DNA of 35,494 nucleotides. Source: a bacterium (GTDB lineage: Bacteria; Patescibacteriota; Minisyncoccia; UBA6257; GWB1-50-10). The translations under genes and the position numbers were made by a program. Shown here in pieces: positions 370 through 10,414 of the stretch. The stretch's first letter is position 1. The number at the start of each line of letters is the position of its first letter. Location: positions 1-35,494 of the forward strand of contig JAJZPU010000002.1 in NCBI GenBank assembly GCA_021811055.1. Direction: 5' to 3'. The notes beneath the pieces are model-generated. The model did not search any database. It was not told the DNA's origin and was given only the letters and a program-made list of their open reading frames with translations.

Positions 370-569
370 GCAAATAAAAGTCTTTATTTGCGAGAAGGAT
401 TCGAACGCCGGACTGAAGTTTTGTCAGCAGACAAAACGAAGGAGGCGGTGTCCAGCCCGATGGGGTGCGACGGCACGACCAAGAGGCGAGGACGAATCCT
501 TCCGTGATTTTCACATATGGCGATACCTAGACAAATCATTTGCGACGGCGAATAATTTAGTCGAAGCCG
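370..569 (+). repeat. tRNA-trailer-type structured element, copy E1
   Basis: P0 hairpin at 370-390. Closing helix gaaggattcg (394-403) / cgaatccttc (493-502). Hairpin gttttgtc-AGCA-gacaaaac (418-437). Hairpin gtgc-GACG-gcac (465-476). Extra module ctagac + stem-GACG-stem + agtcgaagcc (527-568). No tRNA is seen upstream inside the window. Confidence 0.6.
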
Positions 570-570
570 T

Positions 571-894
571 ATGAAAACAGCTATTAAATGGATCTTAGGA
601 ATAGTGCTCGTCGTTTGGATGCTTTCTGCTGCTCCTAAATTTTTGGCGGGTATTTTTTGGGCAGATAGTAACGCTCCATGGGAGAAGGTTGATGCCTTTT
701 ATTATCCCGACGTCAATAATCTTATCGAGTGGGAAAGCCAAATGGATATGGGTTCAATTCAGGCTTGTCGTGATTGGGTAGAAGATTTTGCAGCCGCAAA
801 AGGCGATCCTAATTTAGAGCGCGGTGACTACGAGTGTGGGGTTGGTTGTAAAAGCAAAGATGGATTTAATGTCTGTCGCCTAACTATTGAATAA
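571..894 (+). CDS. small secreted or membrane-anchored Cys-containing protein (hypothetical)
   Basis: 107-aa ORF with an N-terminal hydrophobic segment and four Cys in the C-terminal half. Tightly followed by the next ORF (stop 894, next ATG 898). Confidence 0.5.
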   Translation: MKTAIKWILGIVLVVWMLSAAPKFLAGIFWADSNAPWEKVDAFYYPDVNNLIEWESQMDMGSIQACRDWVEDFAAAKGDPNLERGDYECGVGCKSKDGFNVCRLTIE

Positions 895-897
895 TCT

Positions 898-1443
898 ATG
901 TCGATCGCAATCACCTATTTTGTGCATGGAACAACGACCGATAACGAAAACGGAATATCGTCGGGATGGTCGGATGCGGAACTTTCCGAGCGGGGCATAC
1001 AGCAATCCATCGAACTCAAAAAACAAATCGGCGAAAAAAAATTTGATGTGATTTTTTGTTCGGACTTGAAGCGCGCAAAAGATTCCGCACGGTTCGCTTT
1101 TGAAGACATGGCGCCGATAATCGCCGATGCACGATTGCGGGAGTGCAGTTACGGAACAATGAACGGAAAGCCTTCTGCAACGGTTGAACCCGTGCAGGAA
1201 GCGCACACCACGGAACCATTTCCCGATGGCGAAAGTTATGAGGATGTAAAAAGAAGAATCGCCGATTTCCTTGAGTCGGTGAAGAAAAACTGTGTTGGAA
1301 AACGCGTGGCGATCGTCGCGCATAAAGCGCCCCAACTTGCACTCGACGTTTTGTTGAAAAACAAAACATGGGAAGAGGCGTTCAAGGAAGATTGGCGAAA
1401 AACAAAATCTTGGCAACCCGGCTGGGAGTATATTCTCCCTTAA
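898..1443 (+). CDS. histidine phosphatase (phosphoglycerate mutase-like) family protein
   Basis: N-terminal YFVHGTTTDNE resembles the RHG phosphatase motif, here as VHG. Downstream FCSDLKRA and IVAHKAP segments fit the fold. Confidence 0.75.
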   Translation: MSIAITYFVHGTTTDNENGISSGWSDAELSERGIQQSIELKKQIGEKKFDVIFCSDLKRAKDSARFAFEDMAPIIADARLRECSYGTMNGKPSATVEPVQEAHTTEPFPDGESYEDVKRRIADFLESVKKNCVGKRVAIVAHKAPQLALDVLLKNKTWEEAFKEDWRKTKSWQPGWEYILP

Positions 1444-1448
1444 AAAAT

Positions 1449-2057
1449 CTATAATTCGATATTCTCTACAAATTCCTGAAGCGGCTTTCCTATCGCGCGT
1501 TGCCAAAAACGATCCTGTTCTTCCTGGCTCATTTCTGAAATATAGCTTCCTGTTTCCGGATCGATCTGTATCGATTCGAGAGGGTATCCGGGCACCAGTA
1601 CGGCGCTCGGCGCGCTTGTAAAAATACGCGGCGACAAAATTGTCGTTTCTTTATATTCCCCGTCCGGAGTCGCGACACATATCCCGAATTCCCATCGTCC
1701 CGTTGTTCTTTCACCGAATCTTTTTACAAGCGTGGAATAATATCGAAGCACCTCATCGTCGCTCGGTCTTTCGGAGCTCGACGGAATACGGCGCACATTC
1801 AACCCCGGCTGCTCTTCCGAGGAAAGTTCGTCGAAATACAAAGCATTGTCCATTGAGAGAACGGTTGTGTTGAGCGCCTTCGCATACGCGGTCGCTTTTT
1901 TTCTCGCGTTCTCGAGCGCCGTTTTTCCATCCTCTTCAATGCGCGGAAGGGTTACTTCCTTTCCGATTCCCATTACTGTTACACCCATCGGCGCAAGTGC
2001 TCCGCGGATTTGCGCCACCTTCGCCTCATTTGTTGTTCCGATAACAATCTCTTTCAT
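1449..2057 (-). CDS. Ham1/RdgB-like non-canonical purine NTP pyrophosphatase family protein
   Basis: The 202-aa N-terminus IVIGTTNEAKVAQIR ... EEDGKTALENARKKA matches the ITPase-family pattern (T-x-N-x-x-K, E-x-G-x-T-x-x-x-NA-x-x-KA). Confidence 0.7.
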   Translation of the reverse strand: MKEIVIGTTNEAKVAQIRGALAPMGVTVMGIGKEVTLPRIEEDGKTALENARKKATAYAKALNTTVLSMDNALYFDELSSEEQPGLNVRRIPSSSERPSDDEVLRYYSTLVKRFGERTTGRWEFGICVATPDGEYKETTILSPRIFTSAPSAVLVPGYPLESIQIDPETGSYISEMSQEEQDRFWQRAIGKPLQEFVENIEL

Positions 2058-2110
2058 TGTTTATATGATACTACGCTTCTATGTGATTTGCCTTTAATTA
2101 TCATTGTGAT

Positions 2111-2331
2111 AGAGTCGCCTTCGCCTTAAAATTTTTTCGTCAAAAAATTTTAGGCTAGGCACCCTTGCTCTGGGCTTCGCGATGCAAAGATTTGCATAAC
2201 GCTCGCCCGTCTCCGCTATTCGAATACAAGCAGTTGTATTCTCATTTTACGCCCCGACCTCGCGTGCATATCTGCTGATATGCACTGGCTCCGGTGCACA
2301 AAACGGAACGCGAGACACACAAGTGTCTCGC
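2111..2331 (-). repeat. tRNA-trailer-type structured element, copy E6 (long, apparently two units)
   Basis: Read on the minus strand downstream of tRNA-Arg. P0 gcgagacac-ttgt-gtgtctcgc. CCGGAGC, then gtgcatatc-AGCA-gatatgcac, then GCGAGG. A second box attcgaatagcggagac. Then ctagcc + taaaatttttt-GACG-aaaaaatttta + aggcgaaggcgactct, which resembles the tRNA-Arg T-loop cgactcctct. Confidence 0.55.
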
Positions 2332-2360
2332 TTATACGACCTTGTCGTATATCCGTTTTG

Positions 2361-2432
2361 TGCCCTCGAGAGGAGTCGAACCTCTGTTACGAGATCCGCA
2401 ATCTCGCGTCCTATCCATTGAACGACGAGGGC
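2361..2432 (-). tRNA. tRNA-Arg (anticodon GCG)
   Basis: 72-nt cloverleaf folded by hand. Acceptor GCCCTCG/CGAGGGC, anticodon stem CGAGA/TCTCG with loop TTGCGGA, T-arm AGAGG-TTCGACT-CCTCT. No encoded CCA. Confidence 0.85.
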
Positions 2433-9078: not shown

Positions 9079-9129
9079 TGTGATGTGTTTTTGTAATTAT
9101 GAATGAGGTGAAGTTCCCCGGGATGAGGC

Positions 9130-9201
9130 GCCCCCGTAGTTCAATGGATAGAACAGGTCCGTCCTAAGGACAAAATGGGAGTTCGATTCTCTCTGGGGGC
9201 A
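9130..9201 (+). tRNA. tRNA-Arg (anticodon CCT)
   Basis: 72 nt. Acceptor GCCCCCG/TGGGGGC, anticodon loop GTCCTAA on a 4-bp GTCC/GGAC stem, T-arm GGGAG-TTCGATT-CTCTC. The anticodon stem is slightly irregular. Confidence 0.8.
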
Positions 9202-9211
9202 CGAAAAATAT

Positions 9212-9298
9212 GGAGAGGTGGCTGAGTGGTCGAAGGCGTTACACTCGAAATGTAATGTGCGGGAAACCGCACCGTGGGTTCGAATCCCACCCTCTCCG
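9212..9298 (+). tRNA. tRNA-Ser (anticodon CGA)
   Basis: 87-nt class II tRNA. Acceptor GGAGAGG/CCTCTCC, anticodon stem TTACA/TGTAA with loop CTCGAAA, long variable arm. The genomic sequence continues CCA at 9299-9301. Confidence 0.9.
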
Positions 9299-9398
9299 CC
9301 AGTAGTTTTGGAAAGTGGCAGTAAAAATTCCCTTATTTTGCGCTACTTTCTAAAACCGAAAAGTTATAAAATTAGTGAACCCTAAGGGGATTCGAACT

Positions 9399-9914
9399 AT
9401 GGGACATCTCAACGTAGAAATTAAGGCAAAATGCTCAGACCAAGAAAGGGTCAGACATATGTTGAAATCGCACAATGCAGACTTTAGAGGTGTTGACCAT
9501 CAGATCGATACGTACTTTAAAGTTCCTAACGGCAGATTGAAACTTCGCGAAGGAAATATTGAAAACTATCTGATCTTTTACGAACGCGAAGACAAAGAAG
9601 GTCCAAAACAGTCAAAGGTAATTCTGTATAAAACAGAGCCAGATTCTAGTCTCAAAGAAGTTCTTACAAAATCTCTGGGAATCTTGGCAGTTGTCGATAA
9701 GCAACGAGAAATATATTTCATTGATAACGTTAAGTTTCATTTAGACAATGTCCAGAATCTCGGCACTTTTATGGAGATAGAAGCGATCGATACTACTGGT
9801 AATATCAGCAAAGAAAAACTTCTTGAACAATGCAATCACTATCTTGAACTTTTCGGCACGCAGGAATCAGATTTGCTCAAGAATTCCTATAGCGATCAGA
9901 TTTTGAAATCATAA
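9399..9914 (+). CDS. CYTH domain protein (class IV adenylate cyclase / CyaB-like)
   Basis: NVEIKAK ... Q.DTYF ... RLKLRE ... VDKQREIYF ... VKFHLDNVQNLGTFMEIE follows the CYTH EXEXK beta-barrel pattern. The ATG at 9399 is preceded by aagggga. Confidence 0.75.
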   Translation: MGHLNVEIKAKCSDQERVRHMLKSHNADFRGVDHQIDTYFKVPNGRLKLREGNIENYLIFYEREDKEGPKQSKVILYKTEPDSSLKEVLTKSLGILAVVDKQREIYFIDNVKFHLDNVQNLGTFMEIEAIDTTGNISKEKLLEQCNHYLELFGTQESDLLKNSYSDQILKS

Positions 9915-9918
9915 ATTT

Positions 9919-10101
9919 ATGACAAAACCTAAGCACGCAAAAAAGAATATAGGTATCTCCCCAGAACGTCTGGTGGAACTTCGCCGCGCAACTCTTATAG
10001 TTTCTACCGGCTCATCACTTCGTCTTTCTGGTTCAAAAGTCACTAACGAGCAAGTTGAGCAGATTCTGGACGAGATTAGTAAACTTTCTGCGCAAAAGTA
10101 G
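9919..10101 (+). CDS. small hypothetical ORF, possibly a gene fragment
   Basis: 60 aa, starting 4 nt after the CYTH stop. The SSLRLSGSKVTNEQVEQIL segment loosely recalls Fic-family N-terminal regions. No catalytic motif. Confidence 0.35.
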   Translation: MTKPKHAKKNIGISPERLVELRRATLIVSTGSSLRLSGSKVTNEQVEQILDEISKLSAQK

Positions 10102-10269
10102 GAACATCAAACAAATTAGACCTTTCTTGGTACATCCGCCTCAATTTTCTTATAATCCTATCAACGTTGCTGTAGCTAAGCCGTCCTATCGGTTCAAAGT
10201 TCCGGCAATCGTCCCCGCAAATGAAATTTACCCGTCATTGGGCGGGTTGAAATTTCGTGCAGAGAGGAG

Positions 10270-10414
10270 CGAGCAAACTGCTTTGCTCGCGAGTGAGATT
10301 CGAAGCGCGCAGCCATATGCGTTCAGCAGAATGCATGGCGAGCGGCGGCCTGCGAGTCCGACGAGTAGCGATGAGGAGGAACTTGTAGGCGAATCCATTT
10401 TTCACCCTCTCCGC
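10270..10414 (+). repeat. tRNA-trailer-type structured element, copy E4
   Basis: P0 gcgagcaaa-ctg-ctttgctcgc. gagattcgaagcgcgcagc. Hairpin gccat..gcgttc-AGCA-gaatgc..atggc. GCGAGCGGCGG. Hairpin cctgcgagtcc / ggaacttgtagg. cgaatcc, then caccctctccgc (10403-10414), a copy of the tRNA-Ser(CGA) 3' end at 9288-9299. Confidence 0.65.

What the first reader, a model, noticed from the sequence alone, without database searches (positions are those of the whole stretch)
370..10414. Family of structured non-coding elements trailing tRNA genes (six copies in the first 10.4 kb, none in the other 25 kb)
The copies are E1 370-569 (+), E6 2111-2331 (-), E3 3222-3331 (+), E2 5642-5772 (-), E5 7789-7910 (-) and E4 10270-10414 (+). 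Five of the six lie downstream of, and on the same strand as, a tRNA gene (Arg-GCG, Glu-TTC, Ser-TGA, Ala-GGC, Ser-CGA). They share this order of parts. (1) A terminator-like hairpin, P0. (2) A box (G)GATTCGAA(C/G), which is the reverse complement of the tRNA T-loop/T-stem sequence GTTCGAATCC. (3) CGGAGC. (4) A hairpin with a 4-nt loop AGCA/AGTA/AGAA. Its stem differs in every copy (gttttgtc, gcaattc, gcatcg, gcgttc, tgcatcg, gtgcatatc) but is always self-complementary. (5) GCGAG(G/C)CGG. (6) A second hairpin with a GACG-containing loop and again unrelated stems (aaattattcgc, aaatgtttc, taaaatttttt, caatcac, cctgcgtgtcc). (7) GTCGA(A/G)G..CGAATCC, which pairs back to the 5' box and continues as a sense copy of the neighbouring tRNA's 3' end. 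A short helix bracketing the first hairpin also covaries: CGCC/GGCG in E1 and E2, CGGC/GCCG in E5. Conserved loops and junctions with divergent but compensated stems point to selection on a fold (RNA or single-stranded DNA) rather than recent copy-paste. No ORF or recombinase is associated. I do not recognise it as a named RNA family, REP element, MITE or IS end. I see three possible roles. It could be a tRNA-precursor trailer that sequesters or mimics the T-arm. It could be a non-autonomous element or att-type scar targeting tRNA T-arms. It could be a hairpin substrate for a nuclease or transposase encoded elsewhere, for example the GIY-YIG gene nearby.
Basis: seen in the sequence. Interest (0 to 1): 0.85.

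Follow-up and report, generated by a model that had tools for sequence, protein, structure and literature searches.

The report
Structured element trailing CPR tRNA genes
About 120 bases of strongly folded, non-coding sequence sit just behind most tRNA genes here and in over a hundred other ultra-small (CPR/Patescibacteria) bacteria, each bracketed by an inverted and a direct copy of its tRNA's tail; this is an undescribed family that behaves like a tiny insertion element aimed at one loop of tRNA genes.

Summary
A covariance model finds five complete copies (62-106 bits), a double copy at "E6" and two 3'-half copies. All lie in the first 10.4 kb. Nothing in the other 25 kb scores above about 11 bits. 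Rfam 15 has no match.

Of 116 model hits, 76 lie within 150 nt downstream of a same-strand tRNA.

The fold is a three-way junction. P1 is formed by an arm antisense to the tRNA T-arm/3' end and a sense copy of that 3' end. P2 is a hairpin with an AGCA loop. P4/P3 is a hairpin with a GACG loop. Covariation is massive. G·U and sheared G·A pairs occur only on the tRNA-sense strand, and one subtype folds as RNA but not as DNA.

The sense arm is a duplicate of the tRNA from TT^CGAA in the T-loop to its 3' end. Tandem copies, occasional genes between tRNA and module, and presence/absence at orthologous tRNAs point to a non-autonomous insertion element. No enzyme is linked to it. The mechanism is inferred, not shown.

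The parts
388..508 (+). E1, complete module. 5' arm 394-406, P2 hairpin 418-437, 3' arm 493-502. Preceded by a P0-like hairpin at 370-391. No tRNA within the window.
   Evidence: R1 hit of 86 bits. RNA minimum-free-energy fold gives the three-way junction, z = -6.25. Substring coordinates.
526..569 (+). E1b, a 3'-half copy (YAGAC, GACG-loop hairpin, AGTCGAAGCC). It abuts the ATG of ORF 571-894.
   Evidence: R1 partial hit to model positions 64-101. nhmmer 3'-half profile, E 2e-4.
2234..2331 (-). E6a. P0 at 2310-2331. Its 5' arm at 2294-2306 is antisense to the acceptor and trailer of tRNA-Arg(GCG). P2 at 2264-2285. The 3' half is missing.
   Evidence: R1 hit of 27 bits. Inverted repeat I18, 2289-2307/2352-2370.
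2102..2241 (-). E6b, a second, degenerate complete copy. P0 at 2222-2241 has an AACUGCUU loop. P2 at 2182-2197, P3 at 2124-2154. A decayed tRNA-Arg 3' copy lies at 2104-2117.
   Evidence: R1 hit of 32 bits. Coordinates.
2360..2432 (-). tRNA-Arg(GCG), the tRNA in front of E6.
   Evidence: ARAGORN and Rfam. The orf195-tRNA-Arg(GCG)-module order is also found in L191.
3107..3179 (+). tRNA-Glu(TTC), the tRNA in front of E3. A terminator-like hairpin lies at 3196-3221.
3216..3369 (+). E3 module, 3216-3333. Its 5' arm GGAGAATCGAAGC (3222-3234) matches this tRNA's unusual T-loop TTCGATTC. P2 at 3241-3266, P4/P3 at 3277-3317, 3' arm at 3318-3335. A second, older tRNA-Glu 3' remnant lies at 3348-3369.
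   Evidence: R1 hit of 62.5 bits. Repeat family D7. Folds as RNA (z = -3.3) but not as DNA (z = -0.95) nor on the opposite strand (z = -0.66).
5568..5622 (-). E2b, a 3'-half copy downstream of E2.
   Evidence: Seen in the sequence. Weak R1 hit at 5582-5615.
5636..5772 (-). E2 module, 5636-5755. 5' arm 5737-5746, P2 5707-5724, P3 5657-5689, 3' arm 5642-5651. P0 at 5751-5772.
   Evidence: R1 hit of 95 bits. Fold z = -5.5.
5789..5904 (-). tRNA-Ser(TGA), 5819-5904, and its intrinsic-terminator-like hairpin, 5789-5818, upstream of E2.
7749..7910 (-). E5 module, 7774-7893. P0 7889-7910, 5' arm 7875-7885, P2 7844-7863, P3 7795-7827. The displaced copy of the tRNA-Ala 3' end plus trailer lies at 7749-7788.
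   Evidence: R1 hit of 106 bits. 40-nt direct repeat D5, 95% identical. A near-identical strain, L241, has the same module.
7920..7993 (-). tRNA-Ala(GGC), the tRNA in front of E5.
9212..9301 (+). tRNA-Ser(CGA). Its 3' end is the sequence copied at the end of E4.
   Evidence: Sequence comparison.
9386..10101 (+). Orphan 5' box GGGGATTCGAAC (9386-9397), followed directly by a CYTH-domain ORF (9399-9914) and orf60 (9919-10101). This DNA is carried between the tRNA and E4.
   Evidence: A 73%-identical orf60 homologue also sits just upstream of a module in L177.
10269..10414 (+). E4 module, 10286-10405. P0 10269-10290, 5' arm 10293-10306, P2 10313-10338, P4/P3 10349-10389. The 3' arm plus tRNA-Ser(CGA) 3' copy lies at 10390-10414.
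   Evidence: R1 hit of 62 bits. 85% identical to E3 (family D1). RNA fold z = -4.5, DNA fold z = -1.05.

Best explanation
**What it is.** The element is an undescribed family of structured modules found across Patescibacteria. Each core is about 95 nt, or about 120 nt with its arms. It is the conserved part of a small, non-autonomous insertion element that targets the T-loop of tRNA genes.

**Anatomy (shown).** The order along the DNA is:
1. an intact tRNA;
2. often a terminator hairpin;
3. an optional P0 hairpin;
4. a 5' arm antisense to the tRNA's T-loop, T-stem and sometimes its acceptor 3' strand;
5. the junction GAA(C);
6. P2, which contains a GCC/GGC helix, a GGA/GA internal loop, a GCG/CGC helix, a 2-nt bulge, a variable stem and an AGCA loop;
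7. G(G)U;
8. P4, a 4-bp helix;
9. P3, with a tandem G·A or A-U step and a GACG loop;
10. a 3' arm that is a direct duplicate of the tRNA from C56/G57 of the T-loop (TT^CGAA) to its 3' end.

**How it most likely works (inferred).** The unit enters at TT^CGAA in the T-loop. The tRNA keeps a complete 3' part, and a second copy of that part ends up behind the module. Later insertions push earlier ones downstream, which produces the tandem and half copies. Occasionally other genes lie between the tRNA and the module.

The fold is read on the tRNA-sense strand. It is most probably RNA, made by transcription running on from the tRNA gene. In this fold P1 pairs the two flanks, so both element/target junctions (GGAUU^CGAAC and ...G^CGAAUCC) meet at the base of the three-way junction. 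The conserved junction nucleotides sit there too. A trans-encoded enzyme is presumed to recognise this structure and carry out insertion, excision or copying. Candidates are a recombinase, a nuclease/ligase or a reverse transcriptase. None was identified.
For: R1 finds 116 hits in 100 of those loci. Covariation is far above both controls, with 35 of 41 pairs changed on both sides.

**Strand and molecule.** In core pairs, G·U outnumber A·C by 86 to 34, and G·A/A·G outnumber T·C/C·T by 289 to 24. E3 and E4 fold only on the sense strand and only with RNA parameters. Two G·U pairs are conserved in the three members of that subtype.

**tRNA targeting.**
- 76 of 116 hits lie within 150 nt downstream of a same-strand tRNA.
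- 78 of 136 tRNAs in the loci are followed by a module.
- Two apparently tRNA-less cases follow tRNAs that contain group I introns.
- The direct repeat starts at (T)CGAATCC and usually ends 0-5 nt past the tRNA end.
- The 5' arm tracks T-loop variants: GAATCGAA behind TTCGATTC tRNAs in E3 and L191.

**Insertion behaviour.**
- Tandem and partial copies occur in the window and in L149, L154, L208 and L153.
- L153 shows tRNA-Ser, orf162, module, ART-domain ORF, module, and each module ends in the same tRNA-Ser 3' copy.
- Gain/loss at tRNA-Arg(GCG): orf195-tRNA-Arg(GCG) carries a module in the window and in L191 but not in L237.
- Gain/loss at tRNA-Ala: the tRNA abuts MazG in L244/L245. In the window and in L241, the module plus the old 3' end lie between them.
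- Within one genome, some modules at different tRNAs have 87-97% identical cores but tRNA-specific arms, for example L191.

**No cis-encoded enzyme**.
Against: - No enzyme is linked to the module, so insertion activity is inferred only from genome patterns.
- By eye, about half of the loci have a terminator-like hairpin with a U-run between the tRNA and the module. My crude automated scan found fewer. Either way, this argues against strong co-transcription with the tRNA.
- Both 5'- and 3'-truncated copies exist, so no single copying mechanism is singled out.
- Long identical flanks can arise by gene conversion rather than at insertion. The window and L241 differ mainly in the 14 nt after the duplicated 3' end.
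- Near-identical cores with different arms can also be explained by gene conversion of the core alone.
- When the tRNA is far away, the intervening or upstream genes are often housekeeping genes such as guaA, pyruvate kinase and rpoD. They are not obviously cargo.
- The module at tRNA-Arg(GCG) is shared by genomes whose flanking protein is only about 30% identical. That looks more like a long-retained host feature than a young parasite.
- The pattern has no match in 2.9 million viral contigs.
Confidence: 0.4

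Rival explanations
1. The module is a resident structured RNA gene with a host function tied to tRNA transcription units. It would be made from the tRNA 3' trailer. Possible roles are a processed small RNA, a protein-binding or decoy RNA, or a processing or insulating element between the tRNA and the next gene. 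P1 would simply be the closing or processing stem. On this view the mobile-looking features come from recombination and gene conversion at tRNA loci.
For: - The features favour RNA: sense-strand G·U and sheared G·A pairs, and a three-way junction with about 20 conserved unpaired nucleotides.
- In many loci the module follows the tRNA by only 20-50 nt with no terminator.
- The module is retained at orf195-tRNA-Arg(GCG) across deep divergence.
- It is present in most sampled CPR lineages.
- There is no linked mobility gene.
- There is evidence for gene conversion.
Against: - Tandem full and half copies behind one tRNA are not expected for a single functional gene.
- The sense arm decays outside the paired part in older copies (E2, E3, E6).
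- Modules are absent behind many tRNAs, including orthologous ones.
- About 70% of downstream genes are co-oriented whether or not a module is present, so there is no sign of cis-regulation.
- A terminator is often present upstream of the module.
Confidence: 0.3
2. The module is a folded single-stranded DNA recombination site, analogous to an integron attC site or the CTX phage attP(+) hairpin. In the single strand the two arms pair and re-create the duplex of the tRNA gene from the T-loop to the 3' end. A host or unlinked recombinase would then exchange strands with the real T-loop. tRNA genes would act as attI-like landing sites for small cassettes.
For: - Inverted target-like arms about 95 nt apart pair into a copy of the target duplex, the same topology as CTX attP(+).
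- L153, L240 and window E4 show cassette-like arrays with the module at the distal end.
- Some carried genes are defence-like: ART, HEPN AbiU2, a restriction-modification system and a retron.
- Some copies within one genome are nearly identical.
- Terminators on both sides and the lack of a visible promoter would not matter for a DNA site.
- E5 and E1 also fold well with DNA parameters.
Against: - The E3/E4 subtype depends on conserved G·U pairs and is not significantly structured as DNA (z about -1).
- A conserved three-way junction is unlike the simple hairpins of known single-stranded DNA sites.
- No integrase lies next to the sites.
- Conservative exchange would create chimeric tRNAs when a unit moves between different tRNAs.
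- No empty palindromic site (GATTCGAATC) exists in 917 kb of related loci.
Confidence: 0.12
3. The module is a SINE-like non-autonomous retroelement. The T-loop would be nicked at TT^CGAA, and the RNA's 3' tail (the sense arm) would anneal to the nicked strand. Target-primed reverse transcription by an unlinked reverse transcriptase would copy the module, giving a target duplication of variable length and truncated copies.
For: - The fold favours RNA.
- The duplication starts at a fixed point, and in several loci it extends 14-52 nt past the tRNA end.
- 3'-half copies exist.
- In L148 the 52-nt duplication ends in GGAGATT, which is complementary to the T-arm. That is what microhomology-mediated second-strand priming would produce.
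- The tRNA stays intact whichever tRNA is hit.
Against: - No reverse transcriptase is linked. The only one nearby, in L240, is a retron-type enzyme with its own upstream non-coding region.
- 3'-truncated copies also exist.
- The 5' arm is specific to the tRNA even in recently copied cores, which simple reverse transcription of a source RNA does not explain (L191).
- Long identical flanks may reflect gene conversion instead.
Confidence: 0.08
4. The modules are inert scars: the attR-side arm left behind by classical integrase-mediated islands that integrate into tRNA T-loops, such as the large serine recombinase islands seen next to some of these tRNAs.
For: - The direct repeat of the tRNA 3' part is the classical signature of such islands. 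T-loop attB sites are known, for example mycobacteriophage Ms6 (PMC1762012).
- In L193 a serine-recombinase island lies between tRNA-Lys and the module, with no extra repeat.
- Serine recombinases also lie near tRNAs in L148, L155 and L242.
Against: - Scars do not keep 41 base pairs through compensatory change across more than 100 species.
- Recombinases are present in fewer than 4% of loci.
- The pattern is absent from viral and proviral contigs.
Confidence: 0.03
5. The module is a hairpin substrate of the neighbouring GIY-YIG nuclease.
For: A GIY-YIG ORF (8010-8270) lies directly upstream of tRNA-Ala and E5. Homologues lie directly upstream of module-bearing tRNAs in L155 and L148.
Against: - Only 3 of the roughly 129 related loci screened have such an ORF.
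- It sits on the 5' side of the tRNA and has its own flanking repeats. It looks like an independent homing-type insertion.
- Four of the five other window copies have no such neighbour.
Confidence: 0.03

Closest known systems
CTX phage attP(+) and other Xer-exploiting integrative elements (folded single-strand attachment sites)
   Same: Two inverted, target-like sequences about 90-100 nt apart pair within one strand and re-create the target duplex. After integration they lie at the distal end of the element, next to the regenerated target.
   Different: The target here is the tRNA T-loop, not dif. No phage or single-stranded DNA replicon is involved (0 hits in IMG/VR). The intervening sequence is a conserved three-way junction. 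At least one subtype needs RNA-type G·U pairs.
Integron attC sites and gene cassettes
   Same: Structure is conserved with variable stems. The element is non-coding and needs an enzyme in trans. Copies are sometimes homogenised within a genome. The module occasionally lies at the 3' end of small co-oriented cassettes in arrays (L153).
   Different: There are no RYYYAAC/GTTRRRY cores. The fold is a three-way junction rather than a bulged hairpin. The folded strand is the sense strand. No intI or attI is present. Most units carry no ORF. The arms are target-specific.
tRNA-targeting integrative islands and integrase-less cis-mobilisable elements that accrete at tRNA 3' ends
   Same: The distal end carries a direct repeat of the tRNA from the T-loop to the 3' end. 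The tRNA is regenerated. Elements accrete in tandem. The integrase can be absent from the small elements.
   Different: The units are usually only about 150-200 bp. The conserved part is selected for intrastrand pairing rather than for double-stranded protein-binding sites. An antisense copy of the target is part of the element.
Retron msr-msd non-coding RNA
   Same: The topology is the same: terminal inverted repeats (a1/a2 there, P1 here) close a short hairpin followed by a longer hairpin. The RNA is of similar size. In L240 a retron-type reverse transcriptase lies between two modules.
   Different: No reverse transcriptase is adjacent in the other roughly 120 loci. The copies are many and linked to tRNAs. 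The arms derive from the tRNA. The L240 retron has its own upstream non-coding region.
tRNA 3' external transcribed spacer RNAs, for example the E. coli 3'ETS-leuZ sponge (from my own knowledge)
   Same: A functional RNA is made from the trailer of a tRNA transcript.
   Different: Those are short, unstructured base-pairing sponges specific to one locus. They are not a multi-copy structured family with target-derived arms.

Membership tests
Any Rfam 15 family (including tRNA, tmRNA, hammerhead, twister, pistol, hatchet, HDV, hairpin, group I/II intron domains, msr) | A covariance-model match at or near the gathering score | tested here: not met
   At gathering score only the 7 tRNAs match. With E up to 10 over 1-10800, nothing credible overlaps any module. 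The best overlapping match is BcKCsr7 at 20 bits, E 1.5.
Integron attC | R''/R' core sites RYYYAAC ... GTTRRRY at the two ends | tested here: not met
   The ends are (G)GATTCGAAC ... G(N)CGAATCC.
Integron attC | A single imperfect hairpin with extrahelical bases and an unconserved central part; the bottom strand is the one that folds | tested here: not met
   The fold is a three-way junction with a conserved junction. The asymmetry favours the sense strand.
Integron attC | Located 3' of promoterless cassettes in arrays next to intI/attI | tested here: inconclusive
   Arrays carrying ORFs occur in L153, L240 and window E4, but most units have no ORF and no integrase is nearby.
CTX-type folded attP | Two inverted target-like sites that pair in the single strand to mimic the target duplex | tested here: met
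   P1 is formed by the antisense and sense copies of the tRNA T-arm/3' end. The inner pairs are 88-100% paired, and the outer, tRNA-specific pairs covary.
CTX-type folded attP | Carried by a single-stranded DNA phage or replicon and integrated at dif by XerCD | tested here: not met
   The target is the tRNA T-loop. There are no viral-contig matches and no phage genes nearby.
Integrase-mediated tRNA-targeting island / cis-mobilisable element | A direct repeat of the tRNA 3' part, from the crossover in the T-loop to the 3' end, at the distal end | tested here: met
   The repeat starts at (T)CGAATCC and ends 0-5 nt after the tRNA end in most of 76 loci.
Integrase-mediated tRNA-targeting island / cis-mobilisable element | A tyrosine or serine integrase in the element or in a tandem partner | tested here: not met
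   Clustering of 1672 ORFs from 120 loci gave no recurrent recombinase. Three loci held related serine recombinases, and a fourth recombinase appeared in a MazG locus. None were found among 58 upstream ORFs or in the window.
Retron | A reverse transcriptase gene immediately downstream of the non-coding RNA | tested here: not met
   Only L240 has one. None is in the window.
Retron | A branching G that primes msDNA synthesis | not testable with these tools
   This needs biochemistry. A conserved GGAGC motif exists, but its role is unknown.
SINE-like / target-primed retroelement | Copies anchored at the 3' end and truncated at the 5' end, with variable target duplications from a fixed nick | tested here: inconclusive
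   3'-half copies and duplications of variable extent exist. However, 3'-truncated copies also exist, and gene conversion confounds the flank lengths.
IS200/IS605-derived palindrome-associated elements | Subterminal hairpins, no target duplication, and TnpA/TnpB in the genome neighbourhood | tested here: not met
   A target duplication of about 20 nt or more is present. The hairpins are part of one global fold that includes P1 and P4. No TnpA or TnpB was seen.

The most novel reading that the evidence does not exclude
The module is an RNA that itself programmes site-specific insertion at tRNA genes. Its antisense and sense arms would act as guides for the two strands of the T-loop-to-3'-end segment. 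The conserved three-way junction would be the scaffold, or even the catalytic core, for an unlinked CPR enzyme. This would be a protein-gene-free, RNA-directed mobile element that uses tRNA genes as landing pads for small cassettes. It would resemble bridge RNAs or omega RNAs in logic but not in ancestry.
Probability: 0.07. Interest if true: 0.95.

Novelty: new variant of a known kind. Interest (0 to 1): 0.8.

Why it matters
Patescibacteria make up a large share of bacterial diversity, and almost nothing is known about their non-coding elements. This family follows more than half of the tRNA genes in the sampled loci and occurs in over a hundred species. Its structure is as well supported by covariation as many curated RNA families, yet it is absent from Rfam.

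If it is a mobile element, it is an unusually small one that carries no protein gene. It would use a universally conserved sequence, the T-loop TTCGAA, as its target while always leaving the tRNA intact. It would also help explain why gene order breaks at tRNA genes in these genomes, and how small defence or accessory genes come to lie there.

If it is a host RNA, it is a new tRNA-linked RNA class specific to ultra-small symbiotic bacteria.

Either way the question is directly testable in cultured Saccharibacteria. A covariance model would also improve annotation by separating real tRNAs from the duplicated 3' fragments.

Tried and rejected
- **Rfam.** Searches at gathering score and at E up to 10 found no family.
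- **First DNA pattern.** It was too loose and returned only chance hits in viral contigs, loci L001-L120, which I ignored.
- **Specific pattern in IMG/VR.** 0 hits.
- **Linked protein.** All-against-all clustering of 1672 ORFs from 120 loci gave only housekeeping families. A Pfam scan of 58 ORFs upstream of modules with no nearby tRNA found no recombinase, transposase or reverse transcriptase. The window ORFs also have none.
- **Large serine recombinase as the integrase.** It is seen only in L193, L148, L155 and L242. I judged these to be independent tRNA-targeting islands.
- **GIY-YIG link.** Only 3 loci.
- **P0-loop/P2-loop kissing interaction (CUGC with GCAG).** Complementarity is no better than in shuffled pairings: 2.68 against 2.74.
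- **Core inserted into a pre-existing palindrome (arms abutting).** GATTCGAATC occurs 0 times in 917 kb.
- **Cis-regulation of the downstream gene.** The downstream gene is co-oriented in 70% of cases with a module and 67% without.
- **Census of 5'- versus 3'-truncated copies with nhmmer half profiles.** It is biased by how the loci were chosen and by the more variable 3' half. Both kinds of truncation exist.
- **Spare-part idea (the sense arm as a replacement tRNA 3' half).** Rejected, because older copies keep only the paired 7-10 nt.
- **5' strand of P1 as a copy of the tRNA's own 5' acceptor strand.** Rejected. In L127 (tRNA-Ala) it has A opposite U70, so it is the complement of the 3' strand.
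- **tmRNA upstream of the L240 module.** Not confirmed by ARAGORN or Rfam. By eye it looks like the 3' exon of an intron-containing tRNA.
- **TIGR-Tas paper.** Checked and found unrelated. Six literature searches found no description of this element.

Full report
**1. The observation**

ARAGORN and Rfam find seven tRNA genes, all between 2.3 and 9.3 kb. A pattern joining two of the motifs matches four copies, against 0.00 expected in shuffles.

I built a covariance model, R1, from 58 homologues in other genomes plus E2 and E5. It has 118 positions and 41 base pairs. Scanning the whole window without filters gives:
- five complete copies: 7774-7893(-) at 106 bits, 5636-5755(-) at 95, 388-508(+) at 86, 3216-3333(+) at 62.5 and 10286-10405(+) at 62;
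- two tandem, partly degenerate copies in the region called E6: 2234-2314(-) and 2102-2223(-);
- 3'-half copies at 526-569(+) and about 5568-5622(-).

Nothing credible lies in the remaining 25 kb. E6 is double, extra half copies exist, and P0 is a conserved accessory hairpin rather than a terminator.

**2. It is not a known family**

Rfam 15 gives nothing at gathering score or at E up to 10. Six full-text literature searches found no description.

**3. It is widespread**

Almost all hits are Patescibacteria: Saccharibacteria, Paceibacteria, Kaiser-, Uhr-, Magasanik-, Nomura- and Moranbacteria. A few hits in GC-rich non-CPR genomes were chance, because R1 does not confirm them.

R1 finds 116 hits in 100 loci, often several per 8-kb locus, and more in the remaining loci. 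The same pattern has no match in 2.9 million viral contigs. The window's own organism is a relative of Yanofskybacteria/Parcubacteria. The best named homologue of its MazG protein is 70% identical.

**4. The fold**

RNAalifold on a plain MAFFT alignment already recovers the helices, and 20 of its 29 predicted pairs show changes on both sides. With my hand-completed structure, 82.9% of cells pair, against 64.6% in shuffles. The covariation score is 0.440, against 0.141 for shuffles and 0.08-0.11 for slid partners. On the 116 model-aligned hits the score is 0.577, against 0.156 for shuffles and at most 0.097 for slid partners. That alignment is fitted to the model, so it leans towards the structure.

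The architecture is a three-way junction:
- P1, formed by the two arms.
- The junction GAA(C).
- P2. It contains a GCC/GGC helix whose middle pair covaries (CG 45, GC 14, AU 1, none broken), a GGA/GA internal loop, a GCG/CGC helix, a 2-nt bulge, a variable 8-bp stem and an AGCA-type loop.
- G(G)U.
It covaries as GGCU/AGCC, GCCC/GGGC, GGCC/GGCC and GACC/GGUC.
- P3. Its base covaries GAC/GUC to GCC/GGC, it has a tandem A-U or G·A step, and it ends in a GACG-type loop.
- The 3' strand of P4 then runs directly into the 3' strand of P1.

Single-sequence minimum-free-energy folds of all five complete window copies give the same junction (z = -3.3 to -6.25).

**5. Which strand, and which molecule**

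In core pairs, G·U outnumber A·C by 86 to 34, and G·A/A·G outnumber T·C/C·T by 289 to 24. The folded strand is therefore the tRNA-sense strand.

E3 and E4 lose their structure on the opposite strand (z = -0.66 and -1.21). They also lose it when folded with DNA parameters (z = -0.95 and -1.05). Their P3/P4 stem relies on two or three G·U pairs that are conserved in the only three members of this subtype, found in two genomes. E5 and E1 fold well with either parameter set.

I read this as favouring RNA over folded single-stranded DNA, without excluding the latter. Against RNA, about half of the loci have, by eye, a terminator-like hairpin with a U-run between the tRNA and the module, and there is no room for a promoter. 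My simple automated detector found fewer such hairpins.

**6. Relation to tRNAs**

- 76 of 116 hits lie within 150 nt downstream of a same-strand tRNA.
- 78 of 136 tRNAs in the loci are followed by a module. Ser leads with 30 of 39, followed by Tyr, Gln, Lys, Arg and others. The Ser excess may be partly a bias of the search pattern.
- Two apparently tRNA-less modules follow tRNAs that ARAGORN missed because they contain group I introns.
- The 3' arm is a direct repeat of the tRNA. It starts at (T)CGAATCC in the T-loop and usually ends 0-5 nt beyond the tRNA end. In several loci it runs 14-52 nt into the trailer. In the window, E5 has a 40-nt repeat that is 95% identical.
- The 5' arm is the reverse complement of the same segment. 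It follows T-loop variants: GAATCGAA in E3 and L191, behind tRNAs with TTCGATTC.
- In about a fifth of loci the 5' arm continues, on the far side of P0, as the complement of the acceptor 3' strand. It reaches 7 bp or more in 25 of 114 loci, against 8.5% in controls.
- In L127 (tRNA-Ala) the 5' arm has A opposite U70. It is therefore a complement of the 3' strand, not a copy of the tRNA's 5' strand.
- All junctions fall at TT^CGAA.

**7. Evidence that it inserts**

- *Tandem copies.* Full and partial copies lie behind one tRNA in the window (E1/E1b, E2/E2b, E6a/b, and E3 with two decayed tRNA-Glu ends). The same is seen in L149, L154 and L208.
- *DNA between tRNA and module.*
  - L153 has tRNA-Ser, orf162, module, an ADP-ribosyltransferase-domain ORF, then a second module. 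Each module ends in the same tRNA-Ser 3' copy.
  - L240 has two nearly identical modules around a retron-type reverse transcriptase and two enzymes.
  - Window E4 lies behind a CYTH gene and orf60. An orphan 5' box lies at 9386-9397.
- *Gain and loss at corresponding loci.*
  - The orf195-tRNA-Arg(GCG) neighbourhood carries a module in the window and in L191. L237 instead has a decayed second tRNA copy in front of the same terminator.
  - tRNA-Ala abuts the MazG start codon in L244/L245. In the window and in a near-identical strain, L241, the module plus the displaced 3' end lie between them. L242 has a decayed module and two tRNA-Ala 3' remnants.
- *Similarity within genomes.*
  - Some modules at different tRNAs in one genome have 87-97% identical cores with arms that match their own tRNA.
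  - Tandem or duplicated copies reach 100%.
  - The other pairs are as different as modules from different genomes.

**8. What weakens a simple story**

- No enzyme is linked. Neighbouring genes are ordinary, and no recombinase, transposase or reverse transcriptase recurs.
- Large serine recombinases lie against tRNAs in L193, L148, L155 and L242. They look like separate tRNA-targeting islands.
- Gene conversion clearly acts here. The window and L241 differ mainly in the 14 nt after the duplicated 3' end. Long perfect flanks and near-identical cores therefore need not date from an insertion.
- Both 5'- and 3'-truncated copies exist.
- Genes between a distant tRNA and a module are sometimes housekeeping genes.
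- The module at tRNA-Arg(GCG) is shared by genomes whose flanking protein is only about 30% identical. That suggests either long retention or repeated re-insertion.

**9. Mechanism**

*Shown.* A conserved fold specific to the sense strand. Its closing helix is made from an inverted and a direct copy of the adjacent tRNA's T-loop-to-3'-end segment. In the fold, the two element/flank junctions face each other at the three-way junction, beside the conserved unpaired nucleotides.

*Inferred.* A unit enters at TT^CGAA while the tRNA keeps a full 3' part. The fold is the cis-acting structure that an unlinked enzyme recognises. It is probably read as RNA made by run-on transcription from the tRNA gene.

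I give this 0.4. The rivals are:
- a resident tRNA-trailer RNA with a host function, 0.3;
- a folded single-stranded DNA attachment site of the attC or CTX type, 0.12;
- a SINE-like retroelement, 0.08;
- inert integrase scars, 0.03;
- a GIY-YIG substrate, 0.03.

**10. Comparison and verdict**

In topology it works most like the CTX attP(+) hairpin and integron attC sites, and in genomic behaviour like tRNA-targeting islands and their integrase-less derivatives. It fails defining features of each family: the core sequences, the simple hairpin form, the folding strand, the presence of an integrase, and a phage carrier.

It is a real, widespread, previously uncurated structured element. Its architecture is new within a known general kind, namely structured cis-acting modules of site-specific mobile elements. 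Its enzymology and function remain unknown.

Noticed in passing
window 7993-8307: The GIY-YIG ORF (8010-8270, minus strand) directly upstream of tRNA-Ala is bracketed by an inverted repeat (about 7993-8012 and 8281-8297). Beyond it lies a partial duplicate of the tRNA-Ala 5' end (8281-8307). It looks like a separate homing-type insertion at the 5' side of the tRNA. Homologues lie directly upstream of tRNAs in L155 and L148.
   Followed up: partly
window 9386-9397: An orphan 5' box, GGGGATTCGAAC, lies 85 nt after tRNA-Ser(CGA) and abuts the CYTH start codon. It looks as if the CYTH/orf60 segment was joined at the CGAA of an older module arm.
   Followed up: partly
window 9919-10101; L177 1379-1555: orf60 has no Pfam match. 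A 73%-identical homologue lies directly upstream of a module in L177, an unrelated Patescibacteria contig. Both are linked to tRNA-Ser 3' copies.
   Followed up: partly
window 7897-7919 and many loci (L155, L161, L171, L172, L175, L124, L138, L168): A recurrent trailer motif, roughly GCGAA(C/A)GAAGUGA(A)GCGAA, follows the tRNA 3' end in many loci, in place of a terminator hairpin.
   Followed up: no
L152, L153, L127, L166, L122, L138 (3' arms): In several modules the sense arm is interrupted after CGAA by a small hairpin (for example AGCGUACUCGCG) before the T-stem and acceptor copy resumes.
   Followed up: no
L216 3322-3592(-); L196 5764-6105(+): Group I introns interrupt the tRNA genes that precede these modules, so ARAGORN missed those tRNAs. 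L216 also has a second partial copy of the tRNA 5' exon, and next to it an Avd-like protein (Pfam 23S_rRNA_IVP).
   Followed up: partly
L193 3654-5189(-); L148 5917-7575(-); L155 about 2500-3988(-); L242 1-1076(-): Large serine recombinase genes converge on, or overlap, the 3' ends of tRNA genes. In L193 the recombinase island lies between tRNA-Lys and a module with no extra tRNA repeat.
   Followed up: partly
L240 3874-6828(-): Two nearly identical modules bracket a retron-type reverse transcriptase (PADLOC RT_II-A, 2e-35), a PNPOx-like protein and a serine hydrolase. About 300 nt of structured-looking non-coding DNA lies upstream of the reverse transcriptase.
   Followed up: partly
L244 2426-2503; L245; L242 2395-2500; L248: The MazG start codon directly abuts tRNA-Ala(CGC) in L244/L245. 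MazG keeps a tRNA-Ala 3' remnant upstream in other relatives, while the genes further upstream differ in every genome. Gene order seems to break exactly at the tRNA.
   Followed up: partly
L237 about 3800-3890(-): A decayed second tRNA-Arg(GCG)-like sequence that lacks a D-arm follows the intact tRNA-Arg(GCG), in front of the terminator that in L191 follows the module.
   Followed up: no
all module junctions (for example window 7880/7788, 5742/5651): Every junction falls at TT^CGAA. From my own knowledge this is also the cleavage pattern of AsuII/BstBI-type restriction enzymes. The T-loop and the 5' arm both carry the intact palindrome TTCGAA.
   Followed up: no
L173; L146, L154, L169, L172, L175, L179, L194: Contigs carrying a module are labelled Nanoarchaeia, Gammaproteobacteria or Flavobacteriaceae in their MAG records. 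This is either mis-binning or occurrence outside Patescibacteria.
   Followed up: no
window 124-217: A 36-nt imperfect inverted repeat (124-159 and 182-217, 78% complementary) lies upstream of E1. It is unrelated to the module.
   Followed up: no
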